This document shows positions 10,071-10,240 of a stretch of DNA of 11,826 nt, one piece after another; positions within the stretch are counted from its first letter, which is position 1, and each line of letters starts with the position of its first letter. The stretch lies in the IMG/VR virus record IMGVR_UViG_2778261065_000019. One strand, given 5' to 3'. The position numbers and the translations under genes were made by a program. This stretch comes from a virus. Taxonomy: Duplodnaviria; Heunggongvirae; Uroviricota; Caudoviricetes. The notes under the pieces were generated by a model, which did not search any database, was not told the DNA's origin, and worked only from the letters and a program-made list of their open reading frames with translations.

Positions 10071-10140
10071 TATGTTTTACCTCGTTAATCCGGCGTATTC
10101 CGGTGATAAATACGGTAAAACAGGGCAGGGCGGGAAAAAC

Positions 10141-10180
10141 AGTACCCACCGTTTTAAAACGGTACCCACTGTTTTTTATC
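10141..10180. promoter_or_regulatory. Palindrome plus direct repeats upstream of alpA
   Basis: 16-bp perfect palindrome ACCGTTTTAAAACGGT (10148-10163) embedded in two 14-bp direct repeats, GTACCCACCGTTTT (10142-10155) and GTACCCACTGTTTT (10162-10175). Confidence 0.35.
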
Positions 10181-10205
10181 TTATTGATTACGCTTTTCTT
10201 TCTGC

Positions 10206-10234
10206 AAAAAAATAGCGACCGCAAGGGGCCGCTA
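10206..10234 (-). terminator. Intrinsic terminator after the int / 80-aa ORF unit
   Basis: Minus strand: stem TAGCGGCC / GGTCGCTA (one mismatch; plus 10213-10234), loop, then seven U (plus A-run 10206-10212), just past the stop of the 80-aa ORF. Confidence 0.5.
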
Positions 10235-10240
10235 TTGTGA

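What the first reader, a model, noticed from the sequence alone, without database searches (positions are those of the whole stretch)
10071..10240. alpA has its own upstream region with a 16-bp perfect palindrome nested in 14-bp direct repeats
A terminator at 10206-10234 separates int and the 80-aa ORF from alpA, so alpA needs its own promoter, and the ACCGTTTTAAAACGGT palindrome with flanking GTACCCAC(C/T)GTTTT repeats is the obvious regulator-binding candidate. In Gram-negative PICIs alpA is reported to be the inducible activator, so this may be where a helper-encoded signal acts.
Basis: partly seen in the sequence, partly recalled or inferred. Interest (0 to 1): 0.45.

Follow-up and report, generated by a model that had tools for sequence, protein, structure and literature searches.

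The report
Conserved tandem operator upstream of alpA
Just upstream of the master switch gene (alpA) of an E. coli phage-parasitic island lie two adjacent 20-base protein-docking sites that have stayed intact while the surrounding DNA diverged, which gives a concrete target for finding the unknown signal that wakes these islands.

Summary
In detail: palindrome ACCGTTTTAAAACGGT at 10148-10163 and repeats GTACCCAC(C/T)GTTTT at 10142-10155 and 10162-10175. The description needs correcting. A 16-bp perfect palindrome alone is not unusual here (121 of 500 shuffles). The significant object is a tandem pair of 20-bp units (10136-10155, 10156-10175; 0 of 200 shuffles). Each unit is an inverted pair of 8-bp half-sites, AAAACRGT-N4-ACYGTTTT.

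In relatives whose neighbouring gene differs at about 78% of synonymous sites, half-sites are 94% identical (proximal unit 100%). The 4-bp spacers (56%) and flanks (41-50%) drift. The palindrome at the junction is not conserved, and one-unit variants arose twice.

The array sits a fixed 28 nt upstream of an invariant TACCGT (TAnnnT). That would put the unit centres near -41.5 and -61.5 of a weak promoter, which is activator geometry.

Best reading: a positive-control operator of the alpA promoter. The occupant is unresolved: AlpA itself, a helper or host factor, or the conserved 80-aa protein encoded just upstream. That protein has its own invariant TATAAT, a LexA-like box and a terminator. 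Interest is moderate.

The parts
10156..10175 (-). Distal 20-bp operator unit, AAAACAGTGGGTACCGTTTT (half-sites AAAACAGT and ACCGTTTT, spacer GGGT)
   Evidence: It varies more than the proximal unit across 26-32 unique control regions and was lost independently in L020 and L044.
10136..10155 (-). Proximal 20-bp operator unit, AAAACGGTGGGTACTGTTTT (half-sites AAAACGGT and ACTGTTTT, spacer GGGT)
   Evidence: Its half-sites are 16/16 identical in L016, L017, L019 and L021 although pS is about 0.78 in the adjacent ORF. Its spacer varies: GGGT, GAGT, GGGA, GACT, TGGT.
10148..10163 (.).
   Evidence: It is not conserved in relatives (TTTAAAAA, TTTAAAA, or absent). It is not significant alone.
10118..10135 (-). 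Segment of variable sequence and constant length between the proximal unit and the invariant block; a candidate promoter spacer with a poor -35
   Evidence: Identity to relatives is 41% over the 14 nt compared, but the length is fixed: dyad centre to TACCGT is 28 nt in 25 of 26 unique regions.
10112..10117 (-). Invariant TACCGT, a candidate -10 hexamer (TAnnnT). The inferred transcription start is about A10104.
   Evidence: It lies within the block TTTACCGTATTTnTCACCGGAA (10098-10119), which is 95% identical in diverged relatives. Its assignment as the -10 is inference only.
10086..10105 (-). 10-bp direct repeats CACCGGAATA and CGCCGGATTA between the putative start and the ribosome-binding site
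   Evidence: They are triplicated in L062. They are kept in the Salmonella-type islands L025, L085 and L087, which lack the dyads.
9864..10070 (-). alpA (68 aa; GTG start here, ATG in relatives; Shine-Dalgarno GAGG at 10080-10083)
   Evidence: Pfam PF05930 at 4.5e-8, PHROG excisionase/regulator families, alignment A3.
10204..10236 (-). Intrinsic terminator of the 80-aa ORF
   Evidence: Relatives have a different hairpin sequence at the same place (GCGGCAGAAATGCCGC followed by T7).
10241..10483 (-). Conserved small ORF (80 aa; 75-76 aa in relatives): three helices plus a basic GGRPKKW tail. It is a candidate regulator.
   Evidence: pN/pS is 0.24 at pS of about 0.78. It is present in 71 of 71 loci that carry the dyads. 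The AF2 model has pLDDT 77. It has no family match. Its core recurs as the C-terminal domain of 574 cluster representatives.
10532..10538 (-). Invariant GTATAAT, the -10 of the small ORF's own promoter
   Evidence: It is invariant in 7 diverged lineages while its flanks vary (alignment A6).
10567..10586 (-). LexA-box-like AACTGTACAAAAAACCAGTA (CTGT-N8-CCAG), overlapping the int stop codon
   Evidence: It is conserved at a fixed 30 nt from GTATAAT in all relatives and is a perfect CTGT-N8-ACAG in L019, L021 and L054.

Best explanation
The feature is a cis-acting operator of the alpA promoter. It has two head-to-tail 20-bp units. Each unit is an inverted pair of 8-bp half-sites (AAAACRGT, 4 unconstrained bp, ACYGTTTT), which is the layout expected for a two-fold symmetric (dimeric) DNA-binding protein. 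Two such dimers could bind side by side, two helical turns apart. The array lies a fixed 28 nt upstream of an invariant TAnnnT hexamer (TACCGT, 10112-10117), and there is no recognisable -35. If that hexamer is the -10, the unit centres fall at about -41.5 and -61.5. That is the classical geometry of an activator-dependent promoter. I therefore read the array as the docking site for the factor that switches alpA on. The proximal unit would be essential and the distal unit auxiliary. What is shown: the anatomy, the selective constraint, the fixed spacing, the terminator insulation and the lack of a consensus promoter. What is inferred: the -10 and transcription-start assignment, the activator (rather than repressor) logic, and the occupant. 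My ranking of occupants is AlpA itself (positive autoregulation, about 0.35), a helper- or host-encoded activator (about 0.25), and the 80-aa protein encoded just upstream (about 0.25).
For: Anatomy and significance: (tandem 20-mer in 0 of 200 shuffles; the motif occurs only here in the 11.8-kb window). Phylogenetic footprint: half-sites are 94% identical (proximal unit 100%) and the leader block 95%, against 56% for the 4-nt spacers, 41% for the promoter spacer and 50% for the 30 nt upstream. Synonymous sites of the adjacent ORF differ at about 78%. The 4-bp spacing inside a unit never changes. The junction between units changes sequence and once changes length (19 against 20 nt), and one whole unit was lost twice (L020, L044). 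Fixed distance to TACCGT: 28 nt in 25 of 26 unique regions. No consensus sigma-70 promoter in the window or relatives. In L019 a roughly 400-bp insertion separates the terminator from an otherwise intact control region, so the region is autonomous. The position-6 degeneracy gives R in the forward and Y in the reverse half-sites and produces an A.C mismatch in RNA, which fits protein readout rather than RNA pairing. Literature: PalpA of EcCICFT073 and EcCIMP1 is weak, is activated by AlpA and is induced by the helper independently of SOS (PMC6092414; PMC11773190).
Against: No transcription start is known. TACCGT is a poor -10 (3 of 6 matches), and its choice is guided by conservation only. A weak alternative promoter upstream (TTGCAG-18-TAAGAT, 10207-10178) would put the dyads at +1 to +40, which is repressor geometry. 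A possible anti-Shine-Dalgarno pairing (10114-10122 with 10073-10081; one compensatory swap) would require a start upstream of 10122. Against AlpA as occupant: islands L025, L085 and L087 have an almost identical AlpA DNA-binding region but no such dyads. Proteins of the recombination-directionality type usually bind direct repeats one helical turn apart (PMC7498355 abstract; PMC3936717), which fits the CCGGAAT repeats better than the dyads. All relatives come from a few clades, so the number of independent comparisons is small.
Confidence: 0.5

Rival explanations
1. Repressor operator. The conserved 80-aa protein encoded between int and alpA is expressed from its own promoter. It binds the dyads and blocks a weak promoter lying just upstream of them (TTGCAG-18-TAAGAT, start about 10172). 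A helper product, or SOS acting through the LexA-like box, relieves the block. This would be a Gram-negative counterpart of the SaPI Stl logic.
For: The ORF is a real gene (pN/pS 0.24). It has an invariant TATAAT, a conserved LexA-like box and its own terminator. It co-occurs with the dyads in 71 of 71 loci. Lineages without the dyads carry a different or longer protein, or none, at that position. The model shows three helices plus a basic GRP-containing tail that could read A-tract minor grooves. Weak -35/-10 matches upstream of the dyads recur in three clades (read from sequence).
Confidence: 0.2
2. Direct helper input. A DNA-binding protein encoded by the helper phage (or a host factor released by infection) binds the dyads and activates alpA, as P2 Cox does upstream of P4 PLL-vis.
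For: Helper-dependent, SOS-independent induction of alpA persists in a delta-alpA background in EcCIMP1. There is a precedent: P2 Cox binds upstream of P4 PLL to derepress P4 (PMC3936717). The dyad motif is lineage-specific while the AlpA DNA-binding residues are shared with lineages that lack it, as would be expected if the motif tracks helper specificity.
Against: No coliphage in GenBank phages matches the region. Exact dyad hits in IMG/VR outside this island family are unrelated environmental contigs. No candidate protein was identified. The idea cannot be tested with sequence tools.
Confidence: 0.2
3. RNA-level element. The array is transcribed and folds into a hairpin (attenuator or weak terminator, or a leader structure) that controls read-through or translation of alpA.
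For: The scan flags ACCGTTTTAAAACGGT plus a T-run as terminator-like. The minimum-free-energy fold pairs the whole 40 nt into one long hairpin.
Against: The folding z-score is only -1.58 (13 of 200 shuffles fold as well). Variation does not preserve pairing: there are A.C mismatches, the loop-closing junction changes, and one-unit variants lose the central hairpin. There is no Rfam match. The stem is AT-rich and its T-run is 8 nt away.
Confidence: 0.06
4. A functionless slippage duplication, with a chance palindrome in AT-rich intergenic DNA.
For: A 16-bp palindrome is common in shuffles. Gain and loss of units show that slippage does occur.
Against: Half-sites are 94-100% conserved where neutral sites are saturated. 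The contrast between spacer and half-site conservation, and the fixed distance to the leader block, also argue against it.
Confidence: 0.03

Closest known systems
PalpA of the E. coli PICIs EcCICFT073 and EcCIMP1 (PMC6092414, PMC11773190)
   Same: The position is the same: downstream of int, directly upstream of alpA, in an island with the same replication and late modules. EcCICFT073 shares icd-like, DUF4222, primase, SSB, PerC, capsid and decoration genes. The promoter is weak, self-activated by AlpA and switched on by a helper phage, not by SOS.
   Different: The int/alpA allele and attachment site differ. EcCICFT073 has no small ORF and carries 10-bp periodic ACAAC direct repeats instead of 20-bp dyads. 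In the papers I searched or read, I found no mapped binding site for any PICI alpA promoter.
Phage P4 PLL-vis control region, activated by helper P2 Cox (PMC3936717; the roles of Ogr/delta and Vis are from my own knowledge)
   Same: A satellite promoter whose first gene is an AlpA-family protein (Vis) is turned on by a DNA-binding protein that docks just upstream.
   Different: Cox boxes (TTAAA(G/C)NC(A/C)) occur in at least 6 copies every 10-11 bp and are bound by a filament. No cox-box is present in 10071-10240 (read from the sequence). Here there are two dyad-symmetric 20-bp units.
Class II plus class I activator-dependent promoters (sites centred at -41.5 and -61.5, as for CRP/FNR-type regulators; my own knowledge)
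   Same: Dyad-symmetric sites two helical turns apart, a poor -35 and a TAnnnT -10, if the inferred start is right.
   Different: The half-site sequence matches no E. coli regulator that I could recall (not LexA, CRP or FNR). The transcription start was not measured.
SaPI Stl repressor with its stl-str operator (Gram-positive PICIs; summarised in PMC6092414)
   Same: A lineage-specific regulator gene next to int, with an operator that controls the island's master switch. This resembles the rival reading that involves the 80-aa ORF.
   Different: Stl is divergently transcribed and is a proven repressor that is removed by helper proteins. Here the ORF is co-oriented, tiny and uncharacterised, and repression is not shown.
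Pseudomonas aeruginosa AlpA antiterminator and its ABE (PMC9371919, PMC7969949)
   Same: The name is shared, as is a helix-turn-helix that reads a promoter-proximal DNA element.
   Different: [quoted passage not shown] The protein here is 68 aa, winged helix only, and there is no GGGACG in the region.

Membership tests
Gram-negative PICI (EcCICFT073 type) | A tyrosine integrase at one end next to the attachment site, followed by co-oriented alpA and a primase/replication gene | tested here: met
   int is 10585-11826, alpA 9864-10070 and the D5-type primase 6092-7846, all on the - strand. In the identical genome the island abuts tRNA-Pro beside yejM.
Gram-negative PICI (EcCICFT073 type) | Gene content shared with the prototype and no tail or lysis genes | tested here: met
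   The same icd-like, DUF4222, primase, SSB, PerC, capsid-E and decoration genes occur in EcCICFT073. None of the features annotated inside the roughly 11-kb island of L001 is named as a tail or lysis gene, though several are unnamed hypothetical proteins.
Gram-negative PICI (EcCICFT073 type) | Induction, packaging and transfer by a helper phage | not testable with these tools
   This needs experiments.
AlpA/Vis family (Pfam PF05930) | Profile match above the curated cutoff over the winged helix-turn-helix | tested here: met
   33.3 bits against a cutoff of 21, residues 6-56. There is a weak match to PDB 8c3t, 'AlpA family phage regulatory protein' (E = 0.023).
AlpA-autoactivated, helper-induced promoter (PalpA) | A weak core promoter insulated from upstream transcription | tested here: met
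   There is no consensus promoter, and a strong terminator lies upstream.
AlpA-autoactivated, helper-induced promoter (PalpA) | Activity rises with AlpA and with helper induction | not testable with these tools
   This is known only for other alleles (PMC6092414, PMC11773190).
Dyad operator for a dimeric regulator | Inverted half-sites at fixed spacing, with half-sites conserved and the centre free to vary | tested here: met
   AAAACRGT-N4-ACYGTTTT. Half-sites are 94-100% identical and spacers 56%, and the N4 length is invariant.
Binding array of the recombination-directionality-factor type (Xis, Cox, Apl) | Direct repeats about one helical turn apart | tested here: not met
   The dyad half-sites are inverted and the unit period is 20 bp. 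The separate CCGGAAT repeats at 10086-10105 do fit this pattern.
LexA (SOS) box | CTGT-N8-ACAG | tested here: not met
   The dyads contain ACAG and CTGT only in the wrong order and at the wrong spacing. A separate LexA-like box exists at 10567-10586.
P. aeruginosa AlpA/ABE antitermination module | An N-terminal ring domain, a GGGACG element between -35 and -10, and a downstream terminator | tested here: not met
   The protein is 68 aa with only a winged helix-turn-helix. GGGACG and CGTCCC are absent from 10071-10240 (sequence). The requirements are taken from PMC9371919.
Known RNA family | A match to an Rfam covariance model | tested here: not met
   There are no hits at E of 1 or less in 9700-10700.

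The most novel reading that the evidence does not exclude
This PICI lineage has an extra regulatory tier that has not been described for Gram-negative PICIs. The tiny conserved protein encoded between int and alpA would be the lineage-specific reader of the 20-bp dyads. It has its own invariant promoter, a LexA-like box and a terminator. It would set whether alpA can fire, either as a Stl-like repressor removed by a helper protein or as an SOS-gated co-activator. The diverse, unnamed genes found between int and alpA in many satellites (iolg/icg in PICMI) would then be specificity modules for helper recognition.
Probability: 0.2. Interest if true: 0.7.

Novelty: new member of a known kind. Interest (0 to 1): 0.42.

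Why it matters
How a helper phage switches on alpA is described as an open question for Gram-negative PICIs and related satellites (PMC6092414, 2018; PMC10803314, 2024). I found no later paper in the library that names the inducer. This analysis turns a vague "upstream region" into a defined target. The target is a 20-bp unit with two 8-bp half-sites, with clear predictions about which bases matter (half-sites) and which do not (4-bp spacer, junction). Natural one-unit variants are available. E. coli Nissle 1917 carries a version and could serve as an accessible host (the L018 record was annotated and its control region read). This makes pull-down, gel-shift and reporter experiments straightforward. 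It also flags a second, unstudied player, the 80-aa ORF.

Tried and rejected
- The scan of genome contigs with AlpA returned only distant, unrelated loci.
- I looked for a case that separates the dyads from the small ORF. All 53 IMG/VR loci that encode the ORF are the same island family. The diverged homologue L188 has neither the dyads nor a similar AlpA.
- I looked for the dyads in helper phages and found nothing.
- I considered the P. aeruginosa AlpA antiterminator mechanism and rejected it on size and domain grounds.
- I considered LexA, CRP, FNR, DnaA-box, IHF, lambda-operator and GntR-type readings of the motif by eye. None fits the conserved positions. The DnaA-like GTACCCAC lies in the variable spacer.
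- I considered integrase arm sites and a replication origin. The array is about 1.7 kb from the island end, and PICI origins lie downstream of pri (PMC10111431).
- A literature search for the binding sites of P4 Vis gave nothing usable. A search for PDB 8c3t found no paper.

Full report
**Context**

The window is one end of an E. coli chromosomal island. All the genes discussed here are on the - strand:
- integrase, 10585-11826
- an 80-aa ORF, 10241-10483
- alpA, 9864-10070
- an Ash/Icd-like region
- DUF4222
- a D5-type primase, 6092-7846
- SSB
- a lambda-E-type capsid gene

A genome that is 100% identical over this stretch places the island next to tRNA-Pro beside yejM. The replication and late modules are those of the prototype PICI EcCICFT073, but the int/alpA module is a different allele. 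The finding therefore concerns the control region of the master regulator of a classical Gram-negative PICI.

**Checking the observation**

The terminator is real: 10 pairs, a T7 tail and -16.5 kcal/mol. The statistics change the emphasis:
- A perfect palindrome of at least 16 bp appears in 121 of 500 dinucleotide-preserving shuffles. The window also contains a 22-bp one elsewhere.
- The direct repeats extend to two complete 20-bp tandem units, 10136-10155 and 10156-10175, 18/20 identical.
- No shuffle produced such a tandem pair (0 of 200).
- Each unit reads AAAACNGT-N4-ACNGTTTT, an inverted pair of 8-bp half-sites.
- This pattern occurs nowhere else in the window, even with 3 mismatches allowed, apart from one chance-level hit inside alpA.
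- The 16-bp palindrome is simply where the reverse half-site of one unit meets the forward half-site of the next.

**Comparative evidence**

I collected the region from several sources. These were E. coli genomes at 77-100% identity, contigs encoding diverged AlpA proteins, and 50 IMG/VR contigs. Together they give 26-32 unique control regions, depending on the fragment compared.

The adjacent small ORF provides a neutral yardstick. Between the window and the L016, L017, L019 and L021 lineages, 77-80% of its synonymous sites differ, and pN/pS is 0.24. Against that background, identity to the window is as follows:

| Segment | Identity to the window |
|---|---|
| Half-sites, both units | 94% |
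| Half-sites, proximal unit only | 100% |
| Leader block TTTACCGTATTTnTCACCGGAA | 95% |
| 4-nt spacers inside the units | 56% |
| Segment between the array and the leader block | 41% |
| 30 nt upstream of the array | 50% |

Further observations:
- The spacer inside a unit takes many forms (GGGT, GAGT, GGGA, GACT, GTAT, TCTA, GCCC) but is always 4 nt long.
- The junction changes from TTTTAAAA to TTTAAAAA, and once loses a base.
- Exactly one unit was lost on two independent backgrounds, L020 and L044.
- The proximal unit varies less than the distal one.

These patterns show that the selected object is the 20-bp dyad, not the 16-bp palindrome. The degenerate sixth position is R in forward half-sites and Y in reverse ones, and it yields A.C in an RNA hairpin. 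The RNA fold is not better than shuffles (z = -1.58), and Rfam finds nothing. Protein recognition of DNA is therefore the best reading.

**Promoter geometry (inference)**

No consensus sigma-70 promoter precedes alpA in the window or in relatives. This fits the published behaviour of PalpA as a weak promoter that depends on activation (PMC6092414).

The conservation pattern is conserved (proximal half-site), then variable sequence of constant length, then conserved (leader block). The dyad centre lies 28 nt upstream of an invariant TACCGT in 25 of 26 unique regions. TACCGT has the T, A and T of a TAnnnT -10. With a start near A10104, the unit centres fall at -41.5 and -61.5, the textbook class II and class I activator positions (my own knowledge).

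In L019 a roughly 400-bp insertion lies between the terminator and the array without disturbing the rest. The control region is therefore self-contained.

An alternative is a weak upstream promoter (TTGCAG-18-TAAGAT, 10207-10178). That would make the array a downstream repressor operator. Its -10 loses the key A in most members of the window clade. A possible anti-Shine-Dalgarno pairing with one compensatory swap would, if real, favour an upstream start. Only transcript mapping can settle this.

**Who binds?**

There are three candidates.

(a) AlpA.
- For: it activates its own promoter in two other PICIs.
- For: a winged helix with the conserved wing arginines would suit half-sites flanked by an A-tract.
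- For: Salmonella relatives with different recognition-helix residues (SSFY instead of SSLQ) carry 8-9 direct repeats of AAAACTTCCA instead.
- Against: islands L025, L085 and L087 have an almost identical AlpA DNA-binding region yet lack the dyads. They keep only the CCGGWAT direct repeats near the ribosome-binding site.
- Against: proteins of this functional class usually bind direct repeats one turn apart.

(b) The 80-aa protein.
- For: it is a real gene, and it has an invariant TATAAT.
- For: a conserved LexA-like CTGT-N8-(A/C)CAG lies 30 nt upstream of that TATAAT, and the gene has its own terminator.
- For: it is always present with the dyads (71 of 71 loci).
- For: it is predicted to be a three-helix bundle with a basic GRP tail. 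Its core is a widespread, unnamed C-terminal domain.
- Against: nothing identifies it as DNA-binding.
- Against: linkage explains the co-occurrence.
- Against: a diverged homologue (L188) has no dyads.

(c) A helper or host protein.
- For: helper-dependent induction persists without AlpA in EcCIMP1.
- For: P2 Cox acting upstream of P4 PLL-vis is a direct precedent.
- Against: no phage sequence resembles the array.

I rank these at about 0.35, 0.25 and 0.25.

**Comparison with what is known**

- The element works like the control region of PalpA in characterised PICIs and like P4 PLL, but it shares no sequence motif with either.
- It is not a LexA box, not a cox-box array and not the P. aeruginosa ABE.
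- I found no paper that maps an operator for any PICI alpA promoter or that names the helper inducer.
- It is therefore a new, well-delimited member of a known kind of element.

**Verdict**

Interest is moderate. The result is not surprising to a specialist, but it gives a precise experimental handle on an open question and exposes an unstudied small gene next to it.

Noticed in passing
window 10567-10586 (- strand): A LexA-box-like AACTGTACAAAAAACCAGTA (CTGT-N8-CCAG) overlaps the int stop codon. It sits at a fixed 30 nt from the small ORF's invariant GTATAAT in all relatives, and it is a perfect CTGT-N8-ACAG in L019, L021 and L054. This suggests SOS control of the small ORF or of int read-through.
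   Followed up: partly
window 10241-10483 and 10532-10538 (- strand): The 80-aa ORF is under purifying selection (pN/pS 0.24) and has its own invariant TATAAT and a terminator. Its roughly 55-aa core is the C-terminal domain of hundreds of unnamed 170-300-aa proteins, several of which sit between int and alpA in other islands.
   Followed up: partly
window 10086-10105 (- strand): There are 10-bp direct repeats CACCGGAATA and CGCCGGATTA just upstream of the alpA ribosome-binding site. They are triplicated in L062 and kept (as CCGGWAT-N3-CCGGWAT) in islands that lack the dyads. They could be a site of the recombination-directionality type (AlpA?) or a 5'-terminal mRNA hairpin.
   Followed up: partly
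window 10114-10122 with 10073-10081 (- strand): TGTTTTACC can pair with GGTAAAACA, which covers the Shine-Dalgarno sequence. The two main clades differ by a compensatory T/A swap. The pairing is broken in L021, L046 and L084.
   Followed up: partly
window 1380-1401: A 22-bp perfect palindrome, CAGAATGTAAATTTACATTCTG, is the longest in the window. Only 1 of 500 shuffles reaches this length.
   Followed up: no
window 8588-9859 (- strand), 9402-9581 and 9805-9832 (+ strand): Here a single 423-aa ORF combines Ash and Icd-like parts. In a closely matching genome (L001; 100% identity was checked only for window 9860-10600), PGAP annotates frameshifted fragments plus a + strand YlcI/YnfO gene that converges on alpA. 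A + strand terminator lies at 9805-9832. The layout downstream of alpA is therefore uncertain.
   Followed up: no
L029, L031, L032 (about 330 nt upstream of alpA); L089 9188-9247: Other alpA alleles carry different upstream repeat arrays. Salmonella islands have 8-9 direct copies of AAAACTTCCA. EcCICFT073 has 10-bp periodic ACAAC repeats right after int. Each lineage appears to have its own control motif.
   Followed up: partly
L019 about 2620-3040; L008 about 900-1000: L019 has a roughly 400-bp insertion with TTTTGAGACAACAT repeats between the small-ORF terminator and the dyads. In L008 (strain RM13745) alpA is interrupted 33 nt into the coding sequence by low-complexity G/A-rich sequence.
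   Followed up: no
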